A DNA stretch of 64,000 nt from an uncultured bacterium (GCA_937872535.1 CALMTC010000016.1:41081-105080), one strand, 5' to 3'; counted from the first letter of the stretch, positions 15,763 through 49,800 are shown. Notes: generated by a model from the sequence alone, not told the origin. Program-made: numbers and translations.

Positions 15763-16617
15763 TTATAGTTTTTCAATCATGGAAGAGATTATTTCATTCA
15801 TGATTTTTGGATTTGTCAGCATATTTTTTCAGTCTCAATGAATAATTCCGTATTGAGTTTCGTTGATAGTCCCATTGTTGATCACTGGTAAACCTGTCGA
15901 GTTTTCTATTTCTCCAAAAATTGGTTTTGGCGAATTTTTTTTGGTATTTGCGATGACAAAAGTACGGCCATTGTGATTCACTGCAAAAGTATGTTTTTTT
16001 ATTCTGCTTTGGGCTAAAAGTTTTTCGATTATTTTTTCATAAAAAACTTTCATGATTTCATGTTGTTTTCCGTAGAGTAGTGGGGAGGTGAAAATTTCAT
16101 CTCGATTTTCTGTTGGTTTTGCTGGTATAGTAAATCAGTCTGCTAATTCTATAAGAAGCTCGCCATTTTTATAATAGCAATTTATATTGTCTTGTTTAAA
16201 ATCAAAGTCGAATTCATCTTTTTTATATCTTCGTTTACTGAGTAGAGAACTTCTTGGTTTTGGGAGTTTTTGATTTTCTATTCCTTCTATAAAATCTGTG
16301 TTTTGTTCTTTCATAATTGAGTTGAAGGCATCTGATAATAAAGGTAGTCCTTTTGTGATGCTTTGTATGTTTTCATATTTCCCTGTTTTCTTGAGAGTGT
16401 TTTCATTGAATGATTCTCATTTGTGTTTTACAATGAGCTCATCATTTCCACTGATAGTTATAGAAGAGTCTCAAACTCTCATTTCTCCTGTTTTTTCAAT
16501 TTGTTTTTTTATCAAAATTTTATAGAGATCTATTACACAGTGTGTCAAAATAATTTGATTTTTAGCTTTATCTTTTGTAGGTTCTTGTTTTAGAATTGCT
16601 TCTATAATACCTAACAA
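15763..16617 (-). CDS. orphan protein B5 (last gene of the minus-strand orphan operon)
   Basis: The frame is open from 16707 to TAA 15763-15765 and contains track ORF 15835-16053. There is no in-frame ATG near the 5' end. I chose TTG 16617, which is preceded by AAGGAAGA. The start is uncertain. Confidence 0.4.
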
Positions 16618-16710
16618 TCATCTTCCTTGAGAAGAAATTTTTGGCAGAATAGTATTTTCACTTCATGAAATTTTTATTTCTGCTGTCATCGTGTCGAGAG
16701 AATGGATTAC

Positions 16711-18561
16711 TAGTCCTGTAGATATATTGATTTTTGAGTTGTCAGGAAGTTCTATTTCTTTATTTATCAGAGGATTTTTCTCATTATCTAGTCCTTCGAA
16801 AAAACTCATATAATTATTGTCAGTTATGTTTTTCATTACAAGTTTTTGAGCTTGTTGGTTTTGGGTATCTTTCCAGTATGATTTTAATTTTTCATACTGA
16901 TTTCATCTTATTTTCATAGTTGGTCTTTCGAGTGAACCAAAGTAGTTATCACTATTTACTTGAAGATTTGTTAAGAGAGGACTGATAAAATTATTTAGTA
17001 CACTTGAGGCTCTATTTCTATTTCTTTCTTCTGGAGTAATTTCTGCTCAGACTAATACTCCGTTGATGATTTGAGTTATTGCGGCATCTTTGGAAGATAA
17101 TTTTTCTTGAATTTTTGCTTTGAGTAGATTTTCAGCTTTTGAGAAAAATCAATTTGTATTATCTCATCTTAACTCATTTTGTATGTGTTTTTTGAAATCT
17201 TCGTCATTCCCGTTAAAATTTTTTATTTCTAAAAATGATCAGGCTATTAAACAATCGCTTTGTAGGTTTATTGCTTGGTAGCTGATTGGATTGTATTCAT
17301 TATTTATTATTTCTGCTTTGAGAGCATCTTTAGTTTGTTGAGAAAGAGCTATATAGGGAGGTTTTTTTGAGTTTATTGTATTTTCAAGCAATTCGTCGAG
17401 CAAAGCAATGTGTTTATTATCATAAACTGTTTTTGCACTGGTTTCGATCTGTGATTGAAATGAACTTATGATTGCAGTCTGATTTGAACTTACGAGAACT
17501 GGTTTGTTGATTGTAATTTTTATTTTTTTTGATGCTTTTATTTTTATATCTCTTTTTCAGTTAGAACTTTTTATCTCTTGTGTGGCAGAAATCTGAAGAT
17601 TGATTGTTTGTGGTAGAGTAGCTGTTTTACCAGTTGTTTGATTAATTAGTTCGATGTTATTTGTAGAAAGTTCTCCTGTAGTGGAATTTATTTCTAGACC
17701 TTTTATCGTTATCGTTTCTCCAGAATCTGTCAAAATATCTTTAATCTCAGCTCATGAAACTGATTTATCTTTTTCTGTCATTATGCTGTAGTTTCGAGAA
17801 CCACTTGGTATTTGTTTGAAAAGTAAATTTTCTGCTTTTAATAAGCTTGGATTACTATTTTTTTCTTCTATATTTAAATCTCCAATTTTCTTAATGTGTT
17901 CTATCTCTTCAGCTATTTTATTGATTTTTTCGTAGTCTATTTTTAGCTCTTCTTGTTCAGTTTTTTTCTTGTTTAAATCAGTAATTGTATTTTCAATATT
18001 TTCAATTTCTTTTGGTAAAACTTCTGTTTCTTTTTCTCTTCTGTTTAGTTCATTTTCTCGTTTTGTGATTTCAGTATTAATATCTTTTAGTTTATTGGTT
18101 TCAAAAAAATAAATATTCTTTGTATTTTGATTGTTTGGACTTAAATTTCGATTGTTATATGCTGTTTCTACCTTATTTTTTTGAGTTTCTCATTCAGTTT
18201 TTTTGTTGTTGAGGTTTGTGTTTATTTCTTCTAAACTACCTGAAAGTGCAGGATTTGATTTGTCTTCAAGAGTTTTTAGTCTGTTTTCTTTTTTAATTTT
18301 TTCAGTTTCCAGATTTTTAATTTTTTCATCAATTTCTCATAGATGATCTTCTAGACTATCGTGAAGAAAATTTATTTCCCTTTTGGTATTTTTGAATGTA
18401 GCGTTATCTGAAATTCTTATTTCTTCAAGAGCAGAAAAGAGATCATCGAGTGTTTTGATGATTTGGCGACTTATTTTATGAGGTTTATTCACATCTTGAG
18501 TGAGTTCTGATATGTTTTTTTGTAACTCCAGAAGAGTTTCATTCGTTTTAATATTTCCCAT
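16711..18561 (-). CDS. orphan coiled-coil protein B4 (616 aa)
   Basis: From ATG 18561 (track ORF 18337-18561) I checked every in-frame TAA/TAG. The first is the tandem TAG TAA at 16713-16708. The protein is E/K/N-rich with heptad-like sequence and no recognisable domain. Confidence 0.6.
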
Positions 18562-18689
18562 TGGGATGCAGTAAAAATAAAGCTTTGCTTGATTATAAAA
18601 TAAAATACAAAAAAAAGCAAATTTCTATCACTTTTAGTGTAAAAAATGCTTTTAGAGTTGGCTTTATCTATTGAATTTTTGATAAATTT

Positions 18690-18992
18690 TTAGTCTTCGC
18701 TGATTGCTTTTAAGTAATTTTTTTCAAATTCATCAAGTGTTTCAAAGAGTATTTCGTCGAAATTTTCTACTGTGTCTTGTATATACTGGAAAATTTCGTC
18801 TGCAGAAGCTTCGCTATCAAATAAATGCTGACTAAACTGCTGATCTTCGGGACTCATCTCATTGACGGCATTGGTTAAGATAGTATCAATCAATACTGGT
18901 TTTATTTCTTCTGTTAATAAATCAAGATTGTCTTCGTCTCAAAAACCAGCTTTTTTAAGCAAATTTTGAATATATTGGTCAATGTCGTTCAT
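18690..18992 (-). CDS. small acidic orphan protein B3 (100 aa)
   Basis: ATG 18992-18990 overlaps the B2 stop (TAATG). It contains track ORF 18690-18893 and one internal TGA. The protein is D/E-rich. Confidence 0.55.
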
Positions 18993-20638
18993 TATTTTTC
19001 ACTAGATGGTAAAGATTTTTTTCGATTTTTATATATTGTTTCTAGTTTTTCTATGAGAAGTCCTGAGTTTGCTGTATTGATTTTTTCTTTATTGTTCATA
19101 GTTTTTATCAGATTTATAATTTTTTTATACTCATTTTCTTTTTCATTTGCAGAGAAAATTTCATCACCACCAAATCCATATATAATTCTGCTTATTATTG
19201 AGTCAAATGATCTAGTGTAATTTAATTCTCGTTTCATTCTTTCTTTGTTTTCTGCGAATTCTCTTATTTTCTTCTGTTTTTCTTCATCGATTGGAAGTAT
19301 CTTTTCTTTCCACTTTATTATTGTATTGAAATTTTTTTTAAATGATGAATCTGGTAAATTTTCCATTTCTGTTTTGAGATTTTTTCGTGTTTCTGGTTCT
19401 ATATAATTTCATCTTTGATGAGATACTATTTTCAAAGCTTCTTCATAATTTTCTAAACTCATATACTCTTGAAATTTCTTTTTGTATCACTCGTCGCTAA
19501 GTGTGCCCTCTAGAACTGCTATTTTTTCTCATAATCTGTGACTAGACAGATTTTTTTCTATTTTTTTGATGTTGTCTTTGAATGTGCTAAGGAGTATATT
19601 TTTATTGTTTTCTCATCATTTTTCTATGGCTATTGATAGTATTTTTTTTAATGAAACTGGAATTGTTTCTTTTTTTTGCTCTTCACCAAATACTCATTCT
19701 ATTATTTTAATTATTTGATTTTTATGTTTTATTGAGATTCTATCTTTATTGATTTCTTCACTTGAAAAATCTTCCACAAGTTCGTTTATTTTATTCATTG
19801 CTAGGAGGATTTTTTCATTATTATCTTTTTCTTCATCTTCTGAATTTTTAATTTTTTCTGACTTATTTTTACCGATTTCAATAGCTGAAGACTGCTTTTC
19901 TTCTTGATTTTGGCTCTTATCTCTGGAAGTTGCAGGGGAGTCAAATTCTAATTCTGCTTTTTCAATCACTTTCCATTTATCGCCTGCTTTCATTACTTTT
20001 CCTTTTTTGACTGTTCTTAATGGCGATGTTGTGGTTTGAATGTCTCCAGTATATTTGCATGCTGGATCTATATATTTATCGTAAGAAGAAACTACAATAT
20101 CGAGATTGTCGTTACCAGTAAATTCAAATATGCCTGTGTCGTCAGAAAGAATTGTGAATTGATACAGTGTATCTTGACTGTCTGTCGTTAGTTCAAATTC
20201 ACCATCAATATTTGGGAATGTTGCAAATTCAATTTTAATTTTTTCTGTATTTTTACTTACTTCTTCTGTAGTTTTCTCTTGTGCTGTTTTTTCTTCTTCG
20301 TGTGATGAAAAATTTTTTTCTGGTTTTTGTTCAACTTCTATCATGGGTCATTTTATTGACTTTATTTTCTCGCTTTCTTTTTCCAAAATAACTAATGCTC
20401 AGAGCATTTCTGTTTTACTTGGTAGATCAGAATTTTCGTAAAAATGTTTTTTTGATGAAATAATGTCATCAATATGTCTCAAAATCTTAGATTTTTCTTT
20501 TTCAGATAATGAAGTTAGTCACTCTTCTGTAATTTCAAGATTTTTTACTAATTCATCTGCAGTTTTTGAATTTTGTAGAATATTTATGTCTGCTTTTTCT
20601 CGTAAATTTGTGTGTGATAGATTTGAAATTTTTTTCAT
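18992..20638 (-). CDS. orphan protein B2 (548 aa)
   Basis: Track ORFs 19694-20344 and 18992-19366 are in the frame of ATG 20638 and separated only by TGA. I scanned for in-frame TAA/TAG and found none. Stop is TAA 18992-18994. Confidence 0.6.
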
Positions 20639-20731
20639 TTAATTGTTTTCCAGAATAAAACTTTTTTTGATTTATAGTGTAGATTGCCATACTGTTTTGT
20701 ACTAATCTTACGCGATGATGATTTTATAGGA

Positions 20732-23700
20732 TTATCTTTTTCTGAATGTGTTTGGAGTGGCATCAAATCCAATAAGTAGATTCGTATCTCAATTTTTGTA
20801 TGTTTTTGGTGGCTCGTAATTATTCGGAATTTGTTTTCATGGAATTATATTTTCTGGTGTAATTTCTTGCGATGTTTCTTTTACTTTGTCTATAAAAAGT
20901 TCAAAGAAATTGTTGCCGTGATTGCCATTTCTTCCAATAGAACAGAATGCGAACTCGGATACTTTTTTCTTGAGTTCGGGACTCATGGTACTGATAGTCT
21001 CTTGTATGTTTGTAGAATCTTTTAGTTTAATCAGTGCCTGAGCTACTGAGTGGCTATCCTCAGCAACTAGTATGTTTTTCCCAATTAAATATTTGATGGT
21101 AGCTTGAAATTTAACTGAATTTTCATCGAGTGGCATACCATGATCGAGAGCTATAGTGATAAGCTCCGATTTTCCATCTTCTGTTGCATTCAGAATGTAA
21201 GCCATAATCTCATTTTTTGCTTCATTTCCGATTTTTTGATTTTCAAAAATGTCTTTGGTTAATGTGCTCCAGAGCGTAGTTGATCAGTTAGATTTTGTTA
21301 TGTTGTCAGTGAATTTTTGGTATTTGTCTCAGAGGGTTTTTTGAAGATTTTCTTTTAGAGCTTGATCAATATCGTTAGCCATATATTCTTTTACTCATCA
21401 ATTTGTTTGAACTGGTATTTTTGGTAAAGATTGAATCGTTTCTGATGGGGTGTCTGTATCTCATCGTCGCTGTTGAAAAGCATGAAGTCAATCACTTAAT
21501 GAATCGATAATGTGTTTGCTTAGATATCCAGAAACTCAGTAAAGAGCTGTACTTCCTATTCCGTATTTTATTCCTTTGTTAATTTTTTCTTTTTTGAAGT
21601 TTTTGAAAGCTTCGTTGTAATTATTTTCTAATGTGTTTTTGATATTTTGATATTCATTTTTGTTTCTTATGTCATCTATTGAAATGTTACTTATTTTTGA
21701 GATTATTTTTATGTTTTGAAGTAAATCGTTATAATTTTTTTCGCTTTCTTGAGAAAAATTGTTTGCTAAGAGTGTTTGATTTTTTTCTTTTTTGAAGTCT
21801 ATGCGAACGAGACCTTGAATTGCTGAAGATAATAAATCTGGTAACTCAATAGCTAATTTATTTGAATCTGTGAAATCTAAGTTTTTTATTTTTCATTCTA
21901 TTTCTTTATTGAGAGATTCAATGGAAATAAAATCTCATAGAGATATTGTTTTTTGATAAGCTTCTACTTCTCTTGTTTCTCTTCGTTTTTTTCGACTTGT
22001 ATATTTTTCTAGAAATTTATAATTTTCTACTTTTTTTGATAGTGTTTCCATTTTTCTTTTTTGTTTTGAAAAGTCTCTTAATAGTTCTTGTTCTGAAAAA
22101 TTATGTTCTTTTGTATAATGGAGTTGTTTTTTTAATGAGTTTCTCACGCCAATAATTGCTGATCAAAGTCAAAGTCAAACTCAAGCGCTACCAGAAATCA
22201 TCGCTGTTCCAGTCGCTAATCAACCCATTCCAGCATACATTCATGCTTGGATATATCGAGGATAGCTATCGATTTTTTTCATAATATCATACAGATTTTT
22301 TGAGCCGAAAATCTTTTCTTTTTCTGAATTGCTATTTGTTAAAGATCCTTTTCAACCTCAAAGTGTTCTTAATTTTACTGTGATGTTTTGAGCTTGAATT
22401 TTTTCTAGTGCTGATTTGTGAGCAATTACTTTATCAAGGAGCTTTGCATCATTGAAATTGAGTTTTAATTCAGATAGAAATCATGGCAATTGTTTATAAG
22501 TGGAAGTAAATTTTTGGATTTCTTTTTGAATTTCTTGATTGAAATTATTGATTATAGTTTCTGATGGAGTAGTCAGAGTATGAAAATTTTTTACTTTTTG
22601 ATTTATGTTTTCTATTAATTTTAAATGAGCTTTTTCTATTTTTATTGTTTCTAAAAGATTTGAACCATAGGTTTTTTCAAAATTTGCTGGGAGCTCATGA
22701 TATAGTTTTGAAGTCGGATCTTTTGCTATTTTGCTTATTTGATTTTTGAAAATCTCTTCAGGTGCCGCTTCATTACTAAAAATTCCTGTTTCGTGAATAA
22801 AATCATTACAAAGACTTTCTACTGCTGAATCTTTGAATGTGTTTTCTTCTGAAAAAAGAGCTAAATTTTCTTGAAATTCCTCGTGATGGCGATTCGCTAC
22901 TAATGCAGATTCTTTATCTGTCATAGATTTTTTTGCTAAAATTTTCTTCTTCTCTTGATCTATGATTTTTCATCTCATAAAAAATATTCAGATTTTTTCT
23001 AATGATCGACCTTTAATCCTGCTATATTTCTGAGCTAATTCTTTTTCTGCTTCGAATTGAGCTTGTTGTTCATTGATCTCTTTGATCTCCGAAAATGTGG
23101 CTGAAATTTCTCTGGTGCTTGATGGAGCTGGATTTCATGATGAAACTGGTGATACTACTGGAGCTGTGACGCTTGGAGTAGTTGGAACTGCAATAAATCG
23201 ATCTGAAAAATCTACCATTGTGGTTAAATTGATTCCATTTCTTGAATTTCAGTTTTTGTCTTTTGCTAATTCTGTGATGATATTGCAAAGATTTAGTATC
23301 CATTCTTTGATATCGTTTGATGGAAATGAATCGTACATTTTTTTTAAAGCTAGCAGTCATTCTTTCGGGTCATTGATGATGGTTTCTATTATTACTTTTG
23401 TGTCTTCATCATTCATTTCTGTGATGGTTTCTGCTGATATTTTTTTTATTCAAGCTCATCAGTTGGATTGGGCTTTAGCTTGTTCTATAATGCTTTTTCC
23501 AATATTTTTAAATAAATTTTTTCATTCTGGTGTTTGCTCAATTTCTGTTTTTGGAGTTGCTGTAGGTGAGATTTTTCCTGGAGTTCTCATATTTTCAATA
23601 ATTGTACTTAGATTTTTGATCTGCAAAGTCACTGGATTTGATAAGTCGTTTGGATTGCGTGGAGGAACTGGATTATCCTCTTCTAGATCATCGATTCTAT

Positions 23701-23848
23701 CTTGAATGTAATCGATGGCTGAGTTTTTTTCTGTCGAAAAAGCGTCAATGATTGAAGATTTTGCATTGTCTGTAATTTTTGCATAATTTGAAACTATATG
23801 TGATAAATGCTCTTTAAATTCTCATTTATTCACTGCTATGTTTGCCAT
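20732..23848 (-). CDS. orphan membrane protein B1 (1038 aa) with glycine-zipper hairpin
   Basis: Track ORFs 22481-22924, 21935-22147 and 20837-21205 all share the frame of ATG 23848. A scan for in-frame TAA/TAG found the first at 20732-20734. A Gly-rich TM hairpin, GMGGLATGTAMISGSAGVGLGLGSAIIG, is encoded at 22148-22250. Confidence 0.65.
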
Positions 23849-24015
23849 TTTTATATACTTCAGAATAAAAATATTTTTAGAAAATTTCTGAAAGTATGAT
23901 TAAAAAATTTTTTTTGTCAAAAAATGAGACTGATTTTTTTTAATTTTTTGCCTTTTTTTATTCTTATTTAGATCTTCAAAATTTGACAGATTTTTTGAAA
24001 TGATTACTGTTTGGT

Positions 24016-27000
24016 ATGAAATTTATTTTTTTATTGACTGACATGGGTGGTGATGCTAAAAAAAGTATAGAAGTTCTGGATAAGAAAAAATCAAATGTGT
24101 CTGAAAAGCAACTTGATAAAAAAGTTTCTCAGATTGATGTTTCAAAAAAAAATTTCGAAAAGGAACAACTAGATTTGAAGAAAAATGTCTGAGAAAATGA
24201 GGCTGATAAAAATAAGGAAGTTGAAAGTCATATCGTTATTACAGATTCACATCTTTGACAACTGGAGACGAAGATTGAGGTCGAAAAATGATCTGATGTG
24301 TTGAAAAAAGAGTTGCAAGATAGTACTGAGAAAAATGAAATTTTGGATGATGTGGAAAAACTTTGAGAATCTTTTGAAAAGGCTAATGTTGAGGCATTGG
24401 CTTTAAAAGTTTTAGAAGATCCTTCAAAAAAAATAGAGCAGTGTGATAAAGTTTTTGTTGAATCTTTTTCGATTTTTGTCTGATGGAATGTTATTGGATC
24501 GCTTTATAAAAATCTGATGATGAAGAGTAAATCTCGATCTTGAAGTATTGATGAGGTTTGATTTACTAAATATCTTGATTTTTACCCAGTAAAAACTGTT
24601 CAAGATTTAGAAAAATCTATGCTTGCTAGTGAAACGACGCTTTCTGAATCGGAAAAGAAAGTGATGAAATTTTTGGCAGGAGATTCAGTTTTTGCCAAAG
24701 AATATAGAGAGCAGAAATTTCCAGATATAGCTCAAACTATGCGTCAAAGTATGCCAGAGTTTGTTTCTGATTATAATAGAATGCATTCAGAGGGAGAGTG
24801 AATTTCTGATAAAATTAAAAATTCTGCTGGTTATCTTTGGGATGGAGCGAAGTGAGTTTTTGATAAGAATGAATGGGAGAAAAATCCTACTAAGGTGGCA
24901 CTTTGAACTGCTGCGGTTGTTGGATGAGCATATCTTGGTTATAAAACTATTAAAGGAATTTTTGACTGGTTTAGTTGAGATCCTGAAGAAAAAAAAGATC
25001 CTGAAAATGAAAAGAAAGAGAAAAAACAGAAAAAATCTTTTTTTTCTAAGATGACAGGAGCTTTGAAGCGATGATTACCTATCGCTGGTGGGGCTTTATT
25101 GATTAACTGGTTTTTGACCGGGAACTGAGTCGGTAGCATATGGGATGATCTTAAAAATTTCTTTGGTATCTGAGAGGCTCAGGATCCAAAAAAAGCTGCT
25201 TGAACTTCTTCAATGCCATGAGGAGTAGAAAAAACTTATGATTCACAAAAAGAATTGGCTGAAAAAAATCCTGAGATACAGCAAAAATTTTCTTATCTAG
25301 CAGAGTGAGTTAATCAGTTTTATGCGAGTATTTATGGGAAAAAAGAGTGAGGTAGTGACGATGAAATGCTTGGTGAGTCAGATTATGAAAAAGATTCGAT
25401 TTGAACAGTTCCTTATATGCTCAATTCTAGATATGCTACTGTCGGAGATATGCTCTCTGAAAATGCATTTTTTTATGAAATAGTTGGTAGCAATAGCAGC
25501 TTATTTTTTGATTCTCTGAAAAAAATGTGATTTGAGTGATTGAAAAAACTCTTGATGCCTTTAGCTGAATGAGTTGATTCAATGTCTTGGTGATTTATTA
25601 AAAGTGCTCAATCTTTGGAAAGCCTTATTGATAATCTTAAAGGGAAACAAAATGCCGAAGAAATTATTCGTATGGTTTTTAGAAAATCTCTCAAGGTGAT
25701 GGGCTATTTACAAACCAGAAAAAAAACTTTGAGTTATATATTGGCTCAAGAGTATCTGAAGAAAAATGATACTGAATTTACTCGTTTATCTTCTGAAGCT
25801 CAAAAAGAGAAAATACTTCAATCTTTACAGGATGAAAAATTTTATTCTGATAATATCCAAAAACAAATTGAAGAATTATTTTTGAATAAAAAACTTTTGT
25901 CTTGAGAGACTGGGAATTTGGATGGTGTGATAGTAACACTCGAAAAATATCACTTACTTGATGGGGAACTTGATGAACTTACTAAGGAAATTGTTCAAGA
26001 AGTTGATGAAAATAAAAAAAATATTCTCAAAGATGATGGAGAAGAGAACCTTATTGATAAACTTTCTGAAAAAATATCACAATGAAAACTTGAAGATGCT
26101 GATAAAAAACTTTCTAAAGATATGGTAGAAAAATTTCATCATCACATAAAAGATGTTGGAGCTAGAAGCTTTTATAGTACTGTTCTTTCGGGAGTCTGAC
26201 AGTTTATTAATACTGAAGATGCTTCTATGGAACAAATTCTTAAAGCGATGAATTATGAGTGATCCGTGAGAAAATATATTGATGGTTCACAAGAAATTTT
26301 AGCTAAAATACAAAATAATAGTGCTACTTCTGAAGATCTCAAAAAACTTCAAGAGCTTGTAGATGATTATTTTATGCTGGAAAAAGAGATAAAAGTTGGG
26401 GCAAATCAGATTGTTGATATAAAGCAGGATAATTGAAATTATATTGTGAGATGGGGATTTGGTGTTTTGAGATCGGGGACTGATTTGTTTAATTGAATTC
26501 AAATGGTGATTGATGGGAAACGAGTTAAAGGGTGAATGACTTTGGCTGGTGGGGCATTGACGCTTGATGTTTTGACTGCAGGAACTGTCTTGAAATGATA
26601 TCCTACTAAAGCTGCTTTATGGACTGGTAATGTAATTTTGAAACCTGCTTTGATGCTTACTTGAAATACTGCTTTTACTCTTTGAGCTCGTCTTCTTCCA
26701 GCTCGTTTTGCTGCTGAACTATACAAAGATGGTACGAGATTGAGCTATGCTGTGGCACATGGAGAGATTGATCTTGATAGAGCTTTGGCTATAGCTCAGA
26801 GAAATGGGCTATCTTTTTCGAGCTGAGCTAATGGGAAAGTGGCTACTAAGCTTGAATTGCTTGAAGCTTTGTTTCCATCTTCTGCTTCTAGTGGAGTAGA
26901 TTACAAAAAACTGGAGTATCTTTTTGAAAAATGTGGCAATAATAAAAATATAATGCAGAAAATTTTTGCTGAGAGTGGTTATGTTAATTACAATTGGATG

Positions 27001-29706
27001 AGTCCAAGAGACTGGTTGAAAGCTGATAAATCTAAAGTTCTTTTTAGAATTAAAAATGAAAACTTGGAAGAACTTTATGCTTTGATTCAAAAAATGGACT
27101 CGGCAGATGAAGTTTCTCAGAAGTTTTTTAAATGAGTTTTGTTAGATATTTCAGACGGTATCCAGTTAAAAAATATTTGAGATTGAATTGATAGTAAATA
27201 TGTGGAATATTTTGTTGAGAATTGAATTATAAAACCTGAAGAATTTGGTCGCTTGATCGCTTCTTATGCAGACCAGATTGATAATTTTGATGATTTTCAA
27301 CTGTTTATAGATGAGATGTATAAAGCTGGCAAAATAAACCAAAAAAATGGCACGGCTTTTTTCCGTAATACAATGAAAGATTGGAAAAATGTAAAAAATA
27401 TCTGGAAAAATAATGGTATTAAAGCTTTGGATTCTTTGGATTTGTGATTGACTAAGTCGGAAAAAATCCTGAATGTTTTTTGGAAAGGTATAGATAAGGC
27501 TAAATTTCATTTTTCTCAACTTTTGAATAGTCCAAAAATGCCTCAAACACTAAAGGGCTCAATTCAAAAATCATATCAGGGTCTTTCTCAGATTTCTCCT
27601 GATGTTCTCAATTCTCAAACTCTTCAAGCTTCAAAAAACTTTAAAGTATTTGGTGATCTTTCTAAACTCAAAAATATTGATATTGTCGAAATGAAAAAAA
27701 TTTCTACTCTGCTTCAAACTGATAAAAAAATAGCTCAGCTGTTAGCGAAAGCAAAAAATGTTTCTGAGGTAGAAAAAATCTTGGCTCAAAATGGAGTAAA
27801 TGCTAGTCGTATTGATTCTTTTGTGCTTGAGAAAATTTCGAAAAGTTGATCAACTCAAAAAGTTATGGATTGGGTTTTTTATGCTGCTGAGTCTGAAAAT
27901 CTTTCTAAACTTCAAACTGTTTTGAAACATCCATCTGCTAAGATGCTTGGTAGAGTGCTTATGAAAGTTTGAGTTTGAGCTGATTTTATTTTTGCAGGAT
28001 TGGACTTTAAAGATAACTTGGAAAAAACTCAACTGATGGCTGAGTATAATAAAGAAAGATCAGAAGTTATGAGTTCTCAGACTATTTTCGATCTTACGGT
28101 TCAATCAACTGGTGCAACTGCTGGTTTGGGAGCATTGCTTTTGACTGGTCCAGCTGGCTGGATAGCAGGTTGAGCTGCTGGTTTAGCTCTTTGATTGAAA
28201 GAGGTTGGTGATCTTTATTACGATCAACTCCATGAACATTATAAAAATTTTCAAGATTTTTCTCATCAATCAGTAGCACAAACCAAACAAAATATTGTGG
28301 CTTTGAATGCTTATGATGCCTCTATTGATCCTAGTTGGGGAGCTTTTCTGAAATGATGAATTGATAAAATTTCTGGTAAGACAGAACTTGAACAAAAACA
28401 TACTTATCAGACAGTTTCTGATGCTCTCAGAGCTTTGATTTTTATTGAAGAAACTCAAAAAAATCCTTTTTCTGCTCTTGATCTTAATAAATTTACAAAA
28501 GAGAATGATAAAGAATTGGCACAATCTATTAGCTCAGCAAAAAATAAGCGTGCTGAACAGGTTGAAAGAAGAATGAAATTTTTTGATCGTTATAAGGGTA
28601 AAAATCTGATCGATAAACAAGCTATTGAAAAAAATACTGGGCTTTCTCAGCTAGATATGTTGTTAGAACAGTCTCGTGATTTTGCATTGGGGATTGCTAG
28701 TGGTTATGAACTTGATGGCAAATTTTCTTATCGTGATGCTCTTCGCAAAAAACTTCATGAGACTGATAAGGAAGCTTTTGAATCTCTTGAAAAGAAACGT
28801 CATACTTATCCTCGTGAGTTTGTTGCCATGATTATGTGATTGAAAAATTATGAAGAACTTCTTGAACAAAATAAAGATACCCATCCTCAGTATCAGTTGA
28901 TGAGAAAAAATCTTGATTTCTTGAATGAGTATCTGAAATGGTGTCAGACTGAAAAAACTTTTGAGCAATCTCTTTCTCTTGTTCATTTGCAGGAAAGTGC
29001 CGAACTTATTGATTATTCACAAATAGAATATTTTTTGGAGAAATGGGATATGAAAAAAAGTCCGCTAGAAGCAGAAAATTTACAAGATCAGATGAAATAC
29101 TTTCAAAAAAAATCAGAAAAAAAACTTTTGAATGAGTATGGAGTTTCTGAAAGTGTTTGACATACTATTTTATTGAGAGTAGCTAAGGAGATTTATTCGT
29201 ACTCTGGTGAGCCAGATTTGAAATCACTTCATGAGTTTTTCTCTGAAAGAAATGCTCTTTATCACTGAATTTATTATGCTGATGGCTATTGGTGGGTAAA
29301 CGACGATTTTTGACTCGATGAGAAAATTTGTAGTGACCAGTGACTCAATGACTTAGATCAGGTCCGTGGTTTGCTGGATGAAATAGTTTGACAGGCTGAA
29401 AAAAGTGACTTTATAAGTTCTCATAGCGCTGAGATTCAGCTTAATATTGAAGTTTGAAAGCAGATAAAAAATATTTTTCATGAAGAATTGCGTTATAGGG
29501 AACATCCTCAGACTTATATCCAGCAGATCAAAGATTATATTGTTCACCATTCTTATTGAAAATATATTGAATTGCCCATAGATTTGGTGTGTTTAGCTGG
29601 TAGAGTCTGATTTGTTGGAGCTGGTGAAATGCTGTATTGCTGGGATGGTTCTAAGCTATTAACTACTGATGATTGAAAAAATAGTAAAAATCTTATTCAA
29701 TTTTAA
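24016..29706 (+). CDS. giant orphan membrane protein C1 (1896 aa)
   Basis: Eight track ORFs from 24619 to 29160 are all frame 1. I read every junction as TGA only, with no TAA/TAG until 29704-29706. There are several Gly/Ala-rich TM segments, for example at 28104-28196. The alternative start is ATG 24043. Confidence 0.7.
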
Positions 29707-30664
29707 TTCTCTTATTGCTGAACTGATGGACGAAAAAAATACTGCTTCTGTGGAAAATAACTCAGGATCTGAAAAAAAAGAGGCTGAAAAAGTTGTTCTT
29801 ACTAGTAAACAGGAACTAGACGCTTTGAAAAAAAATATTGATGACTCTAAGGATGATAAGGAAAAATTTGAAACAATGGTGGATTACGTGGCTTGAAAGA
29901 TTCTTAAACTCATGGTTTATGAAGCTATGCAGATTAAAGAAGTTGTTTGAGAATCAAATTCTACTATGTTTGAAGTTCTTGATTTTTTTGGTATCAATCC
30001 TATTGAAAGTGTTATTTCTGAACTACTTGATGATGGGGCTATGAGTAAAGTGTGATTAGCTTTTCTGAGAAAAAAATATACGAGCTCTGAGAGTATTAAA
30101 CTTCTTGATAGTATTGAAACGATAAAGGGTCAATTACCAACTCTTACTAATCTTGATGCTTGTGTGAAATTTGCTCAGAAGTATGATATTCCATTGCCTG
30201 ATGGTATGCTTTCAAAAACTTCTGAACAAGCTACTTGAACATCAGTGGAAACAGTTTCAAAGAATCCATTTATTGCAATGAGTGATGAATTGAAAGCTGA
30301 AAAACTTTCTCATTCTGTGATGGATTATTCTAAAAAACAAGACAAAAGTTCAGATATTTCTGGTTTGGTTTGATCTGGTATGCTTATGGATATAGAGAAA
30401 TCACTTGGTTTTTTACAAAAAAACTTCGTTCCAAATAATGAAATCTCCTTTAAGGATCTTACTAACTCAATTTCTACTAATGAATTAACTGTGTGAGATT
30501 GGATTATTACTGAAAAAGATGGTAAAAAATTTATTTATCTTCTTGTTGAAAAACCAAAAGATGGTAAAGTAAAAGTGGCTTGAAATGATCAACTTGTCGA
30601 TCTTTCTGCTGTTTCTTACGCTGGAAAGGTTGATTATCAAAAATTACAAGAAAAAACTTCATAA
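29669..30664 (+). CDS. orphan protein C2 (331 aa)
   Basis: Frame 2 is open from ATG 29669 to TAA 30662-30664 with several in-frame TGA. It overlaps the C1 end by 38 nt. An alternative in-frame ATG is at 29726. Confidence 0.55.
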
Positions 30665-30689
30665 AAAATTTATTTTCTGCTCAAAAACT

Positions 30690-31454
30690 ATGACATTTTA
30701 TTCACTAGATTCTCAAGAAAGAAAAACTAGCAATGCCGTTCTGGAGAAAGATGTTTCTCAAGAAACTACTCAGGCTTTGGAAGCTCATAAAGATGATGTT
30801 GTGAAGATGGCTGGTATAGTTGGTGCAGCTTTTTTGGCAGATAGTTTTTCTGATTCGAAACCAGAAGAGAAACTTTCGTGGAAAGAAAAATTGAAAAAAC
30901 AGTTTTCTAGGGAGAAGAAAAATACTGAAATTGTTGATAAAAATACTGAAAAGGTAGTAGAAAAAAAAGAAGAATCTCTTGCAGAGAAAAAGATTGTTTC
31001 TGCAGAGAAAAAAAATTCTTCAGATGATAAAGAAAATTTCAAGGATTTTGAGGCAATTGAATCATCTGGAATTTTATATCAAAATGGTTGTACTATGTGT
31101 TCTAGGACGGCTAGACTCGATGCAAAAAGTATTTTTGGTGTAGATTTACCATCAGGGAATGCTAGAGATAGTTTTTCAAATCCTATCTTGGATAAAGGTT
31201 TTCTCTGAACTGCAAAAGATTTTTCTCAGGATAGCTGAAATTTTGCTGATGTCTTGGTAGAACCACCAAAAATGAAATTTAGTGAATATGGTCATAGATT
31301 TATTGCTTTTCGTAATCAGAGGGATGGACAGTGGTATGGTATTGATCCTTATGTTCAACACCGTCAAGTAAAACCATTTTTGATAAAAGATTATTTTTGG
31401 AGAGATAGAATTATTAAAGTGAACTATTATGATTCTCCTATAAAAATTTCTTAA
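30690..31454 (+). CDS. transglutaminase-like (papain-fold Cys-His-Asp) domain protein C3
   Basis: Stitches 30585-31208 (from ATG 30690) and 31254-31454. The middle is K/E-rich. The C-terminal block is YQNGCTMCSRTARLDA...YGHRFIAFRNQRDGQWYGIDPY. This matches the transglutaminase-core pattern G-C...H-x-W/F...G-W-x-x-x-D-P. Confidence 0.55.
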
Positions 31455-46824: not shown

Positions 46825-49800
46825 ATGAAATCTCTGACTCATCAGAGTCGGATTCTATCTATGAGATTGCCGATTGTTCATGAAAAAACTAGTATGAATG
46901 TGATTGGCGAAATTATCTTTTTTTTGAGAAAGAAAATCATTGCTAGGATTGCACAGAGTGATATCAAAATTATGAGAACTTGGGGGACGGGAAACGAAAA
47001 TGAAACTCAAGTATTGAAGGCTTTTGTGATGAATGGAAAATTTGTTCATCGACTGAGATCGTATGCTATATATTTGCTTATTTGATCAAAAACTATCAGA
47101 ATTAAACTTATTATAATAATACTTTTTTGATATTTCATTAGAGAAAAACTTTTAAAAACTAAAAAAACTTTCTTTGTTTATTGAAATGATTTGGAAAATC
47201 TAGATTTTGATCAAGAATTTTGTTTATTTATTCTTAAGTGTGTACATTTTTTGTCAAAAAAATGATTGTTTGTATTTTTAGAACCAAAATTTGACAATTT
47301 TTTGTTTTCTGCTTATAGTATTTGTGATGTTATTTATTTTTTCTACTCAATAAAAATGTTTTTCTCTCAAAAATCTAAACTTCAATTGAAAAAAAAAATC
47401 CAGAAATTTAATGTAAGAATTTTTTCATTAGGGATTGTCTGTTTTTTGATCGCTTGATTTACCTTTATGCTTGTAGAGAGTATTGTTTCTCCAGTTCTGA
47501 CCTATGCAAGCTGGACTAGTAATGATGACTATGTTGATGATTCTTTTTGGGCGGGAAACCCTAGTGATTCAGATATTATTTCTGCTTTTTTTGGAGATGG
47601 GCAGCTTGGTACTGATTCTACTGCTTATAGTCAACGCTGGAGCGGAGCTCTTTGCGATACTAGCTTGATGACTGTTGAACATATTTCTAGTTTGGCTGGG
47701 CCATTTAATTCTTGAACTATTTATATTTTAGATCAATGAACATATACTGTCTTTACTAGAATTATACTAGATAGTTGTTCTGCTCTTGTAAGTACCTGAT
47801 GAGTTACTTTGGTGCAGGATTCTTCTTTGAATGATGTAATTTTGTCGATGGATGGTGTTAATAATGTTGTTGTTGATTGAATTAATTTTGATTGAGGAGG
47901 TTTTCCTTCTACTTATGTATTATCCTTGGATAATTCCGTGAATATCACTTTCCATGCTATTGATATGAGTAATTCTTCTGCAACTGCTCTTGCTGCTTTA
48001 AATTCATCTTCTGTTAGTGTTTCTCATTCAGATTTTGTTTGAAATCAATTTTGAATTCAGGTTCTCAATGTTGATGGTTTGTGGTTTGATAATATTTTTG
48101 TTTCTGGTTCTACTTCACAATGAATTGTTGTTAATAATTCTACTGGTCTTGGTATGGAATACATAGAAATCTCTCATTCATCTCAATGATTAAATATTTT
48201 GAATTCTTATTACTCGGGTCAAGTTATTCGTTTTCTTGATCTACATGATAATACTAGCAATATTGGTCTTGCTCAGATAGATCATCTAACGATATATGGT
48301 ATTCGTTCTTATAATTCAGATTCTTGTGTTACTGTTTCGTCTTTACATTTTAGCTATCTTTATGATTTTGTAGCTTATAATTGTAGCTTGTATGGAGTAC
48401 AAATTTCTTCTTCAGATTATTCGGTTTTTGATGATTTTATTGTTTTTAATAATTATAATTGAGTTTCTTTGCCTGGTAACAATAATTCTATTTTTTCAAA
48501 TTTTCTAGTTTATAATAATTCTAATATTGCATTTTTTATCAATTCATCTTCAAATAATAGTCTAGTAAATATTCGTGCTTATAATAACTATATCTTTTTG
48601 AATTCTGATACTTTGTCATATAATAATAAGTATTATGGTAATCTTATACTCAAAGATAATGCTGTTAATTTTATTGTTACTAATGCTAATGATTTTTTCT
48701 TCTCTCCGTGAAATGATTCTTTCTATCCAGGTTGGAGTGCTTGAGTTTTGCAGACAGGATCTTTAGGTTCAGATATTAGTGATTTTGTTTTGAATCCAGT
48801 TAATGAGAATGGTACTTATTTTTATTCTCTCACTGGTAACGCGTCTTTCAGATGATATACTGGTTCATGGAGTGGAAAAACTTCTCAATATCTTTATTTT
48901 TCTGAGTTGCCAAAACAATCTTCAGGTGTTATTTATCATGATACAATTCTGACTAATTCTACAGTTTTTCCTTTTAACTCTGATCTTTTTATTACTGATT
49001 GAATATTTTCTTGATATCTTTATGGACAAGACTTTTTCGGTTGAAGTATTGATCTTCTTTCTCAGTGAGATGCTATCATTCATAAAAATATAGGGAAATA
49101 TTTTACTAATCATACTGGTGTCTTTACTTTGAAGCTTAATGTTTCAGAGGATGCAGAATATAGTTTTTTTGGTGATTTTGTTACTGGTAGTAGTCTATGA
49201 GTTACCGGATTTATCAATGGAGCGAATTTGACGGGTGATGTTCTTTTTACGAATTGAACTGGTAAAAAAATTTTAGTAGCTCAGTTTACTACAGGAAGCA
49301 AAATTTCATCTCGCTACTGAATTTACTTGAATTATGATTTTTCTGCTCCGACAATTTCGATAGTTGCTCCTTCTAGTGGTGCTCACTTTTTGTATGGTAC
49401 TGCCTTAAATCTTTTGGTCTCTGGTGATGATTTAATAGGAGCTTGATTCCACTGATTTGATTATGAGGTATCAACTTGAGATTCTATGAGTTTTATTATT
49501 TATAGTGGTTTTGCTTCTTGAAATGTAGCTGTGTTACCATCTTTGGTCGATAATATTTATTATGTGAGAGTCAGAGGAAAAGATTTTTTGTGAAATTATT
49601 CTGCATGGACTAATGTTAGACCTTTTTTTATTGATGCTCCTAAGGCTAATTTATCTTTGACTAATAATGTTCCTTTTGGTTCGCAATCGGGAGAACTTCT
49701 TTCGATTCTTTATACATATAATAATATTGGTCCTGATTTGGCTAGAAATGCTGTATTTTCTTTAGTGCTGCCGAGCTGATTAACTTTGGTCAATAGTAGT

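What the first reader, a model, noticed from the sequence alone, without database searches (positions are those of the whole stretch)
15763..31454. 15.7 kb divergent pair of operons encoding eight orphan proteins: candidate novel envelope or cell-contact apparatus
From a shared 167-bp AT-rich control region (23849-24015) two tightly packed gene sets diverge.

- **Minus strand:** B1 (1038 aa), B2 (548 aa), B3 (100 aa, acidic; its start overlaps the B2 stop as TAATG), B4 (616 aa, coiled coil) and B5 (about 284 aa).
- **Plus strand:** C1 (1896 aa), C2 (331 aa, overlapping the C1 end) and C3 (254 aa).

Only C3 shows a motif I can place: its C-terminal Cys-His-Asp block looks transglutaminase/papain-like. 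The others are E/K/N-rich with long predicted coiled coils. B1 and C1 carry Gly-rich membrane hairpins. The compact operon structure, the translational coupling and the terminal hydrolase-like gene suggest a multi-protein machine rather than unrelated ORFans. Absconditabacteria are described as epibiotic or predatory, so a host-attachment or attack function is a reasonable hypothesis. That function is inference only.
Basis: inference. Interest (0 to 1): 0.8.

Follow-up and report, generated by a model that had tools for sequence, protein, structure and literature searches.

The report
Orphan gene block with wall-hydrolase pair
Two back-to-back operons in an uncultured Absconditabacterales genome encode seven lineage-specific proteins; one is a new CHAP-like cell-wall hydrolase that recurs next to a giant membrane-hairpin protein in related bacteria, and nothing shows that the whole block is one cell-contact machine.

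Summary
The block is real and its coordinates are right, but it holds seven genes, not eight. B4 and B5 are one 932-aa ORF. The genome reads UGA as Gly and CGA as Trp, and sits in a chromosome of Candidatus Absconditabacterales.

Six proteins (B45, B3, B2, B1, C1, C2) match nothing in Pfam, NCBIfam, PHROGs, PADLOC, PDB sequences or phage genomes.

C3 is the exception:
- Its C-terminal 135 residues belong to an uncurated family of 69 cluster representatives, with invariant Cys-His-Asp.
- The AlphaFold2 model is confident (pLDDT 94.6).
- Its nearest folds are CHAP endolysin domains, with TM-score about 0.5.

C1-like giants are rare, but a C3-like gene lies directly downstream of one in about five divergent lineages, with different flanking genes each time. 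That pair looks like a functional module. No B-gene relative was found beyond one close relative, in limited searches.

None of the seven proteins has a signal peptide, and 54 of 56 C3 relatives also lack one. This argues against a conventionally exported surface apparatus. A crude heptad test did not support long coiled coils.

Best reading, with moderate confidence: a membrane-hairpin giant coupled to a leaderless peptidoglycan hydrolase. The B operon remains unexplained.

The parts
15763..18561 (-). It is K/E/N/I-rich, has no hydrophobic segment, and carries 16 UGA and 5 CGA codons.
   Evidence: One ORF without an in-frame stop. Called as 932 aa on the contig and by NCBI as HMT00776.1. No family, PDB or phage match.
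18690..18992 (-). B3: a 100-aa, very acidic protein (net charge -21). Its start overlaps the B2 stop as TAATG.
   Evidence: No significant family match.
18992..20638 (-). B2: a 548-aa orphan, 47% K+E+N+I, with no hydrophobic segment.
   Evidence: No match.
20732..23848 (-). B1: a 1038-aa orphan and the first gene of the minus-strand operon. It has a 62%-identical ortholog at the same position in L003.
   Evidence: No family, PDB or phage match. No relatives found by pattern scans of JGI metagenomes or IMG/VR.
22139..22261 (-). B1 Gly-rich hydrophobic hairpin-length segment (aa about 530-570, YIQAGMYAGMGGLATGTAMISGSAGVGLGLGSAIIGV). A CGA-encoded Trp sits at aa 531.
   Evidence: Kyte-Doolittle 19-mer maximum of 1.59. 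Conserved in L003. CGA site listed.
23849..24015 (.). Divergent AT-rich intergenic region. Between species it keeps two conserved blocks, each containing TTGACA: about 23910-23926 on the minus strand and about 23979-24017 on the plus strand.
   Evidence: A minus-strand promoter-like site lies at 23920-23893, but promoter-like sites are not enriched overall.
24016..29706 (+). C1: a 1896-aa giant protein (the start may instead be Met10 at 24043). It founds a rare family found in code-25 bacteria.
   Evidence: Distant relatives are L004 (split into 1148 + 1585 aa), L008 (1443 aa), L005 (651 aa), L014 and L015. No family, PDB or phage match.
24883..25131 (+). C1 first hairpin module (aa 290-372): two Gly-rich hydrophobic segments separated by a Lys-rich linker, preceded by the conserved [DN]K[EN]EW motif.
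   Evidence: A profile HMM of this module hits the L005 651-aa protein (18.7 bits).
26527..26715 (+). C1 second Gly-rich hydrophobic region (aa 838-900).
   Evidence: Conserved in L003.
27943..28197 (+). C1 third Gly-rich hydrophobic region (aa 1310-1394), including the Gly zipper GWIAGGAAGLALG.
   Evidence: Conserved in position in L004 and L008. Weak hits to a phage tape-measure PHROG (E 0.0098) and to the B1 hairpin (E 0.039) are probably compositional.
29726..30664 (+). C2: a 312-aa orphan (331 aa if started at 29669). It has an ortholog only in L003.
   Evidence: No family or PDB match. Not related to the C3 domain by hhalign (probability 3%).
30690..31454 (+). C3: a 254-aa protein. The N-terminal half is low-complexity with one weak 17-residue hydrophobic stretch. 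The C-terminal half is the papain-like domain.
31047..31451 (+). C3 CHAP-like Cys-His-Asp domain (aa 120-254; Cys137, His202, Asp219, Tyr221).
   Evidence: 69 family representatives. Invariant C/H/D/Y. AlphaFold2 pLDDT 94.6. The best Foldseek matches are CHAP endolysins. Some relatives are fused to SLT or VgrG3-like lysozyme domains.

Best explanation
The 15.7-kb block is native chromosomal DNA of a Candidatus Absconditabacterales bacterium. It carries two divergently transcribed operons of lineage-specific, fast-evolving proteins.

**Plus-strand operon.** Its core is a conserved two-gene module.
- C1 is a giant protein that probably sits in the cytoplasmic membrane through several Gly-rich hydrophobic hairpins.
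- C3 has a C-terminal domain that is a divergent CHAP/NlpC-P60-type cysteine peptidase or amidase with a Cys137-His202-Asp219 triad. It most likely cuts peptidoglycan.
- C3 and almost all its relatives lack a signal peptide. The proposed mechanism is that the giant hairpin protein recruits, gates or releases the leaderless hydrolase at the membrane. In logic, not ancestry, this resembles a holin-endolysin pair or a scaffold-controlled autolysin.
- The operon lies directly upstream of the cell-wall gene mltG (a YceG-family match).

**Target.** Whether the enzyme acts on the cell's own wall (growth, division) or on a host or prey wall is open.

**Minus-strand operon.** B1, B2, B3 and B45 have no assignable function. 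B1 may be a second membrane-hairpin scaffold. The other three look soluble and cytoplasmic.

**Shown:** gene structure, genetic code, orphan status, the C3 fold and triad, the C1-C3 gene neighbourhood, and the absence of signal peptides.

**Inferred:** membrane insertion, the peptidoglycan substrate, physical coupling of C1 and C3, and any tie between the two operons.
For: **C3 domain**
- Cys, His, Asp and Tyr are invariant across 54 aligned family members.
- The model is confident: pLDDT 94.6, pTM 0.89.
- The top PDB matches are CHAP endolysins: LysIME-EF1, LysGH15, Ly7917, LysK and PlyC (probability 0.94-1.0, TMq about 0.5).
- The viral structure library gives the same picture (CHAP proteins, endolysins).
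- Three family members are fused to SLT or VgrG3-like lysozyme domains. One C3-like gene sits among genes with weak PG_binding_1 matches, below Pfam's threshold.

**The C1-C3 pair**
- In the window and in L003, C1 is followed by C2 and then C3.
- In L008 a 1443-aa C1-like gene is followed after 2 nt by a C3-like gene.
- In L005 a 651-aa protein carrying the C1 hairpin module overlaps a C3-like gene by 13 nt.
- In L014 the end of a gene resembling the L004 1585-aa protein (the C-terminal half of that locus's split C1) lies 9 nt before a C3-like gene (E 1.6e-11).
- In L015 an 869-aa ORF with a weak C1 hit precedes a C3-like gene.
- The flanking genes differ: YceG in the window, IPPT in L008, L014 and L015, trigger factor in L005.

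**Export**
- 54 of 56 family members with a complete N-terminus have no signal-like hydrophobic segment, and none of the seven block proteins has one. The neighbouring M23, YceG and SLH proteins score 2.8-3.7 on the same measure.

**Native and real genes**
- GC3 is like the rest of the window.
- Orthologs are 62-66% identical over their full length.
- The flanks are housekeeping genes.
- CGA-encoded Trp residues sit at the edges of three Gly-rich segments.
Against: - No biochemical or expression data exist.
- The Foldseek scores are moderate (E 4e-3 to 3e-2, TM about 0.5), and no Pfam CHAP or NlpC_P60 model matches C3. A CHAP-like fold does not prove a peptidoglycan substrate: a leaderless enzyme could act in the cytoplasm.
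- The hydrophobic segments are weak (Kyte-Doolittle 1.2-1.6), and no proper topology predictor was available.
- Many C3-like genes occur without any C1-like neighbour. One C1-like locus (L004) has no C3-like gene on its 12.5-kb contig.
- Two of the five adjacencies rest on weak similarity: L005 at 18.7 bits and L015 at E 0.001.
- L008, L014 and L015 all share the IPPT flank, so they may not be independent cases.
- C2 lies between C1 and C3 here and is unexplained.
Confidence: 0.4

Rival explanations
1. There is no machine. The block is a cluster of unrelated, fast-evolving, lineage-specific proteins that happen to lie side by side. C3 is an ordinary stand-alone hydrolase, and its position near C1 reflects inherited synteny only.
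For: - The full block is syntenic only with a close relative whose housekeeping flanks are also syntenic.
- B genes were found nowhere else, in limited searches.
- C3-like genes sit in many other contexts.
- There is no paralogy or shared domain among the seven proteins.
- No energising or known structural component is present.
Against: - Adjacency of C1-like and C3-like genes recurs at 23-40% protein identity with different flanking genes and gaps of 2 to 13 nt or overlaps.
- The TAATG coupling of B2 and B3 and the tight spacing suggest co-expression within each operon.
Confidence: 0.3
2. One reading: all genes of both operons together build a surface or envelope apparatus for attaching to or attacking a host cell, with C3 as the wall-breaching enzyme.
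For: - Absconditabacteria such as Vampirococcus are epibiotic predators. They have giant membrane proteins and peptidoglycan hydrolases that are thought to act on the host (PMC8080830).
- The block proteins evolve faster than their flanks (62-66% identity against 78-92% for five of the six flanking genes compared, DprA being 69%), as expected for interface proteins.
- L008 and L015 carry two genes downstream of the C1-like gene. These share an N-terminal region but have different C-terminal domains, which looks like an effector cassette.
Against: - No protein has a signal peptide, and four have no hydrophobic segment at all.
- There is no adhesin, pilus, secretion-system or ATPase domain.
- B and C genes were not found together in any divergent genome.
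- PADLOC, PHROGs and the phage searches were empty.
Confidence: 0.12
3. A cytoplasmic or inner-face membrane scaffold, for example for cytoskeleton, division or membrane shaping. B1 and C1 would act as hairpin-anchored filaments, and C3 would be a cytoplasmic cysteine peptidase acting on a non-wall substrate.
For: - All the proteins lack signal peptides.
- They are K/E-rich and probably helical.
- Foldseek also returns non-wall papain-like enzymes such as USP, Josephin-like, SpvD and CdiA-CT, at lower scores.
Against: - CHAP endolysins are the best and most complete structural matches.
- Family members are fused to lysozyme-type domains.
- The heptad test shows no excess of coiled coil.
Confidence: 0.12
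4. A decayed prophage or tail-like remnant, with C1 as a tape-measure-like protein and C3 as its lysin.
For: - C1 aa 1355-1440 gives a weak hit to a tape-measure PHROG (E 0.0098, 16 bits).
- Tape-measure-embedded hydrolase domains appear among the viral Foldseek hits.
Against: - No other phage gene is present.
- There are no tblastn hits in 50,697 phage genomes and no IMG/VR relatives.
- GC3 is native.
- The housekeeping flanks are conserved in the relative.
Confidence: 0.04

Closest known systems
CHAP-domain peptidoglycan hydrolases (phage endolysins LysK/LysGH15, PlyC, LysIME-EF1; Pfam CHAP PF05257, NlpC/P60 superfamily)
   Same: - An alpha+beta papain-like fold.
- A nucleophilic Cys at the start of a helix, His on a beta strand, and an acidic third residue.
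- They are the best structural matches.
- Fusion partners in relatives are lysozyme-type domains.
   Different: - No curated HMM matches.
- TM-score is only about 0.5 and identity is 10-20%.
- The family has its own signature: T-x-C-S-x-T-A ... N-x-x-D ... Y-G-H-R ... L-D-P-Y.
- About 40% of the aligned members show Trp where a UGA-encoded Gly was mistranslated, which marks them as coming from UGA=Gly bacteria.
Holin-endolysin pairs and holin/peptidoglycan-hydrolase-dependent protein release (type 10 secretion)
   Same: A hydrolase without a signal peptide is encoded next to a membrane protein with Gly-rich hydrophobic hairpins. This adjacency is conserved.
   Different: - C1 is 1896 aa, more than ten times the size of a holin.
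- There is no sequence relation and no phage context.
- Pore formation is pure inference.
Scaffold-controlled division autolysins PcsB (coiled coil + CHAP) and CwlO (coiled coil + NlpC/P60) under FtsEX
   Same: - A helical N-terminal half followed by a C-terminal CHAP-like domain.
- Partnership with a membrane protein.
- Cell-wall genes nearby: mltG (YceG family) and an M23 peptidase.
   Different: - PcsB and CwlO have signal peptides, while C3 does not.
- No FtsE or FtsX was found among the window genes scanned.
- C1 has no ABC-transporter features.
Giant membrane proteins of Vampirococcus and other Absconditabacteria
   Same: The same bacterial group, large size, and predicted membrane association (PMC8080830).
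   Different: Most of those proteins carry recognisable interaction domains and are described as surface fibres. The block proteins have no known domain and no export signal.
Phage tape measure proteins
   Same: Long proteins with Gly-rich hydrophobic segments, sometimes with a hydrolase nearby or embedded.
   Different: There is no tail module, no phage homologs and no significant HMM match.

Membership tests
Papain-like CHAP / NlpC-P60 superfamily (C3 domain) | Conserved catalytic Cys and His, plus a polar third residue, in that order. | tested here: met
   Cys137, His202 and Asp219 are invariant in 54 aligned family members.
Papain-like CHAP / NlpC-P60 superfamily (C3 domain) | An alpha+beta papain-like fold that can be superposed on solved CHAP domains. 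| tested here: met
   AlphaFold2 pLDDT 94.6. The top Foldseek PDB hits are CHAP endolysins, probability 0.94-1.0 and TMq 0.48-0.51. The viral library agrees.
Pfam CHAP (PF05257) or NlpC_P60 (PF00877) as curated families | A match to the curated HMM at or above the gathering score. | tested here: not met
   C3 has no hit at E<=0.1, and none of 68 family members has one at E<=0.01.
Peptidoglycan hydrolase (functional class) | Cleavage of peptidoglycan stem peptides or of the amide bond. | not testable with these tools
   Only indirect support: fusions to SLT and VgrG3-like lysozyme domains and cell-wall gene neighbours.
Holin-endolysin / type 10 secretion | A small (<150 aa) holin with 1-4 transmembrane helices next to the lysin. 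| tested here: not met
   The partner, C1, is 1896 aa. No small membrane-protein gene lies in the operon.
Holin-endolysin / type 10 secretion | The hydrolase lacks a Sec signal. | tested here: met
   By a hydropathy heuristic, C3 and 54 of 56 relatives have no signal-like segment, while exported window proteins do. No dedicated signal-peptide predictor was available.
Known secretion or contact systems (T4SS, T6SS, T7SS, CDI, type IV pili) | Signature ATPases or structural domains such as VirB4/VirD4, TssB/C, VgrG, EssC, WXG100 or pilins. | tested here: not met
   No Pfam or NCBIfam hits. No Walker A motif in any of the seven proteins.
Phage tape measure protein (C1) | A significant match to a tape-measure family and a location in a tail gene module. 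| tested here: not met
   Only a 16-bit hit at E 0.0098 over a Gly-rich segment. No phage genes lie nearby. No phage tblastn hits.
Anti-phage defence systems | A match to PADLOC models. | tested here: not met
   Only sub-threshold hits of 14-17 bits.
   In a crude home-made test, heptad-like fractions of 0.10-0.21 fell within about one standard deviation of shuffled controls. COILS and MARCOIL were not available.

The most novel reading that the evidence does not exclude
Bacteria that read UGA as Gly (Absconditabacterales and relatives) have a previously undescribed way to deploy wall-cutting enzymes. A giant protein with several Gly-rich membrane hairpins (the C1 family) would export or position leaderless CHAP-like hydrolases, and other cargo carrying a shared N-terminal adaptor, as seen in L008 and L015. 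This would work without Sec signals or any known secretion system, possibly to breach the wall of the host cell. The B operon would supply further parts.
Probability: 0.15. Interest if true: 0.8.

Novelty: new variant of a known kind. Interest (0 to 1): 0.45.

Why it matters
Absconditabacteria are uncultured, host-dependent bacteria, and how they cut their own wall or their host's wall is unknown.

- **A new hydrolase family.** This work defines an uncurated CHAP-like family that lacks signal peptides and in which many members come from UGA=Gly bacteria.
- **A recurrent gene pairing.** The family repeatedly sits next to a rare family of giant membrane-hairpin proteins. That gives a concrete, testable two-gene module in place of a 15.7-kb block of unknowns.
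- **If the pairing reflects export or control of a leaderless hydrolase,** it would be a new solution to a general problem: getting a wall enzyme across the membrane.
- **A practical warning.** Public translations of these genes are wrong in two ways. UGA is read as Trp in many metagenome protein sets, and CGA is read as Arg in the NCBI translations. Both errors weaken homology searches.

Tried and rejected
- **Code-25 translations in gated tools:** I got round this by fetching the NCBI cluster members.
- **First AlphaFold2 job:** I ran full-length C3 without an alignment.
- **Concatenated B1+B45 homolog search:** it returned nothing, not even the proteins themselves. I treat this as a tool failure, not as evidence of absence.
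- **C1 pattern scans of GTDB genomes:** no relatives in two scans. The first used patterns containing UGA-encoded Gly. Each scan used only two peptide patterns, so this is weak negative evidence.
- **JGI metagenome scans** for B1 and C1 and **IMG/VR scans**: nothing.
- **Phage genomes by tblastn** for C1, B1 and B45: nothing.
- **PHROGs and PADLOC** and **PDB sequence searches** for B45, B1, the C1 profile, B2 and C2: nothing meaningful.
- **C2 as a degenerate papain-like domain:** rejected by hhalign (probability 3%).
- **The C-terminal 'RVANLxN' module** of C1-like proteins in L004, L005 and L008: not present in the window.
- **A second, NlpC/P60-like hydrolase in the L008 266-aa protein:** this rests on visual inspection only. 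It has no Pfam hit.
- **tRNA and Rfam scans of the window:** empty.
- **Paralogy among the block proteins:** none. The only signal is a weak, probably compositional, hit between the B1 and C1 hairpins.
- **Sample accessions in the literature:** uninformative.

Full report
**Genetic code and origin**

The window is 32.7% GC. ORFs of 150 aa or more sum to 4,420 aa under table 11 and 27,767 aa when UGA is read as sense. In the window's EF-G, six of seven UGA sites align with Gly in a solved EF-G, and none aligns with Trp.

CGA behaves as a Trp codon. Across nine ortholog pairs between the window and locus L003:
- CGA pairs with CGA 13 times, with TGG 6 times, and once with ATA.
- CGA never pairs with AGA, AGG, CGT, CGC, AAA or AAG.
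- By contrast, AGA pairs with AAA (22), AGG (11) and AAG (7).

A 2026 paper states that Absconditabacterales decode CGA and CGG as Trp (PMC13092985).

The window is part of a 147.7-kb ENA contig (L001, offset 14,015). NCBI holds near-identical proteins (more than 90% identity clusters) from MAGs named Candidatus Absconditabacterales bacterium, all called hypothetical protein (HMT00776-HMT00782).

The flanks are housekeeping genes:
- Left of the block: a PKD-domain protein and a gene matching the DNA polymerase III delta-subunit family.
- Right of the block: YceG/MltG, an M23 peptidase, DprA and EF-G.
- Further along the window: NUDIX, RuvB, UvrA, UDG, an RNA methyltransferase and SLH proteins.

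No tRNA or Rfam element lies in the window.

**Gene structure**

Under code 25 the block holds seven genes.

| Gene | Coordinates | Strand | Length (aa) |
|---|---|---|---|
| B45 | 15763-18561 | minus | 932 |
| B3 | 18690-18992 | minus | 100 |
| B2 | 18992-20638 | minus | 548 |
| B1 | 20732-23848 | minus | 1038 |
| C1 | 24016-29706 | plus | 1896 |
| C2 | 29669 or 29726 to 30664 | plus | 331 or 312 |
| C3 | 30690-31454 | plus | 254 |

These agree.

- **B4/B5.**
- **B2/B3.** The TAATG junction is real.
- **C2 start.** The ortholog in L003 and a near-identical strain both start C2 at the equivalent of Met20, 20 nt after the C1 stop. The C1/C2 overlap is therefore probably an artefact.
- **Intergenic region.** It is 167 bp and AT-rich. 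Aligned with L003 it keeps two conserved blocks, each holding TTGACA, one per strand.
- **C1 start.** NCBI's upstream TTG start lies inside one of those blocks and is closed by a stop codon in L003, so it is probably wrong. This is read directly from the sequences.
- **Promoters.** Promoter-like sites are not enriched overall (53 found, 67.5 expected).

**Orphan status**

None of the seven proteins has a significant match in:
- Pfam, NCBIfam, PHROGs or PADLOC;
- PDB sequences, tested for B45, B1, B2, C2 and a C1 family profile;
- 50,697 phage genomes by tblastn, tested for C1, B1 and B45.

There is no Walker A motif and no paralogy within the window.

The genes look native and real:
- GC3 (0.18-0.23) lies within the window's range.
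- Orthologs in L003 are 62-66% identical over their full length.
- They evolve faster than most of their flanks, which are 78-92% identical for five of the six flanking genes compared; DprA, at 69%, is only slightly more conserved than the block.

**C3**

An exhaustive HMMER search with C3 residues 120-254 found 69 cluster representatives at E<=0.001.

- **Family signature.** In the trimmed alignment Cys137, His202, Asp219 and Tyr221 are invariant. The signature is T-x-C-S-x-T-A ... N-x-x-D ... Y-G-H-R ... L-D-P-Y.
- **Origin of members.** 23 of 54 members show Trp at conserved Gly columns. That is the mark of UGA=Gly genomes translated with code 4. Some show Arg at the conserved Trp, as expected for CGA.
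- **Structure.** With this alignment AlphaFold2 gave pLDDT 94.6 and pTM 0.89.
- **PDB matches.** Foldseek ranks CHAP endolysin domains first: 6ist, 4olk, 5d74, 4csh and 4f88, with probability 0.94-1.0 and TMq about 0.5. Other papain-like enzymes follow at lower scores.
- **Viral matches.** The viral structure library gives CHAP proteins and endolysins.
- **Curated models.** No curated CHAP or NlpC_P60 model matches any member. Two members carry an SLT domain and one a VgrG3-like lysozyme domain.

C3 is therefore a divergent, uncurated member of the CHAP/NlpC-P60 superfamily, and peptidoglycan is the most likely substrate.

**The C1 family and its neighbours**

C1 has very few relatives.
- A word-indexed search of 5.8 billion proteins found only C1 itself, a 63%-identical ortholog (L003) and a 24%-identical 1148-aa protein (L004).
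- A family-profile search added one 1443-aa protein (L008).
- Pattern scans of GTDB genomes, JGI metagenomes and IMG/VR found none. Each scan used only two peptide patterns, so this is weak negative evidence.

In L004 the C1 equivalent is split into genes of 1148 and 1585 aa.

The informative result is gene order:
- **L008:** the C1-like gene is followed after 2 nt by a C3-like gene. Next comes a gene whose N-terminal region is paralogous to that of the C3-like protein.
- **L005:** a 651-aa protein carrying the C1 hairpin module (profile hit of 18.7 bits) overlaps a C3-like gene by 13 nt.
- **L014:** the last 115 residues of a gene matching the end of the L004 1585-aa protein (E 1.6e-11) lie 9 nt before a C3-like gene.
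- **L015:** an 869-aa ORF with a weak C1 hit precedes the same pair of genes as in L008.

The flanking genes differ between these loci. Other C3-like genes stand without a C1-like neighbour. The L004 contig shows no C3-like gene.

I read this as a conserved two-gene module that is present wherever the rare giant is present. Two caveats apply. Two of the links are weak. L008, L014 and L015 share an IPPT flank, so they may not be independent.

**Export signals**

On a simple hydropathy measure, exported proteins of the window (M23, YceG, SLH and others) score 2.8-3.7 in their first 45 residues. All seven block proteins score 1.6 or less. B45, B2, B3 and C2 have no hydrophobic segment at all.

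Of 56 C3-family members with a complete N-terminus, 54 lack a signal-like segment.

B1 and C1 have Gly-rich hydrophobic stretches of hairpin length, with Kyte-Doolittle values of 1.2-1.6. Three of these stretches are bordered by CGA-encoded Trp. In C1 the stretches are conserved in position in distant relatives.

This pattern fits membrane-hairpin proteins whose bulk faces the cytoplasm. It does not fit a Sec-exported surface structure.

**Coiled coils**

A home-made heptad test gave heptad-like fractions of 0.10-0.21, within about one standard deviation of composition-matched shuffles. The claim of long coiled coils is not supported, although the test is crude.

**Interpretation**

The best-supported mechanism is a membrane-anchored giant (C1) working with a leaderless CHAP-like peptidoglycan hydrolase (C3), encoded just upstream of mltG. 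C1 would recruit, gate or release the enzyme.

Whether the target is the cell's own wall or a host's wall cannot be decided. Vampirococcus, another member of Absconditabacteria, is a predator that has giant membrane proteins and hydrolases assigned to host attack (PMC8080830). That keeps the attack reading alive as inference only.

The B operon is unexplained. No evidence links it to the C operon beyond the shared intergenic region in two close relatives.

Rival readings are a chance cluster of orphans, a surface contact apparatus, a cytoplasmic scaffold and a phage remnant. They are scored in the rival section.

**Novelty and score**

The C3 domain family and its pairing with C1-like giants are new as far as the libraries and searches used here show, but they are a variant of a known enzyme class. 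The other five proteins cannot be placed at all. The claim of a single eight-protein contact machine is not supported. Interest is moderate, at 0.45.

Noticed in passing
whole window; block sites at B45 aa 138, 168, 256, 777, 820; B2 aa 13, 418, 470, 539; B1 aa 217, 281, 531, 619, 622, 794, 795; C1 aa 174, 352, 836: CGA behaves as a Trp codon. In ortholog pairs it interchanges only with TGG and never with Arg or Lys codons. The NCBI table-25 translations of these proteins carry Arg at these 19 sites. This is a known reassignment in Absconditabacterales (PMC13092985).
   Followed up: yes
window 23979-24017 and 23910-23926: Two intergenic blocks, each containing TTGACA, are conserved with L003 more strongly than the flanking coding sequence. 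NCBI's TTG start for C1 (11 aa upstream of the ATG) lies inside one of them and is not open in L003.
   Followed up: partly
L008 4619-6319; L015 4752-6464: Downstream of the C1-like gene lie two genes with paralogous N-terminal regions (about 90 aa) but different C-terminal domains. One is the CHAP-like domain. The other is an unassigned domain with a Cys...His pattern. The layout resembles an effector cassette with a shared adaptor.
   Followed up: partly
L004 9441-11456 (minus strand), L004 4563-9320, L008 286-4617, L005 2365-4320: A C-terminal motif (...EEGLRVANLxN...) is shared by C1-like proteins and by a MORN-repeat protein in L004, and it occurs twice in the L005 651-aa protein. It is absent from the window.
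   Followed up: partly
window 46825-50973: A 1382-aa protein with weak DUF11 and SLH matches contains an uninterrupted run of 24 Gly residues.
   Followed up: no
window 15763-18561 (proteins P0005, P0006): A fragmented NCBI MAG of a near-identical strain (same 90%-identity protein cluster) holds this gene as two partial proteins of 619 and 306 aa on separate short contigs.
   Followed up: no
L009 527-4304: A C3-like gene is flanked by two genes that share an N-terminal region with weak PG_binding_1 matches but have different C-terminal domains. This suggests clusters of wall-acting enzymes in these bacteria.
   Followed up: partly
C3 family alignment A4: 23 of 54 public family sequences have Trp at conserved Gly columns. 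Many database proteins from UGA=Gly bacteria are therefore mistranslated with code 4, which lowers search sensitivity.
   Followed up: yes
tool behaviour: A concatenated 1970-aa query (B1+B45) returned no hit at all, not even the two proteins themselves, although both are in the collection. Negative results from that search should not be trusted.
   Followed up: no
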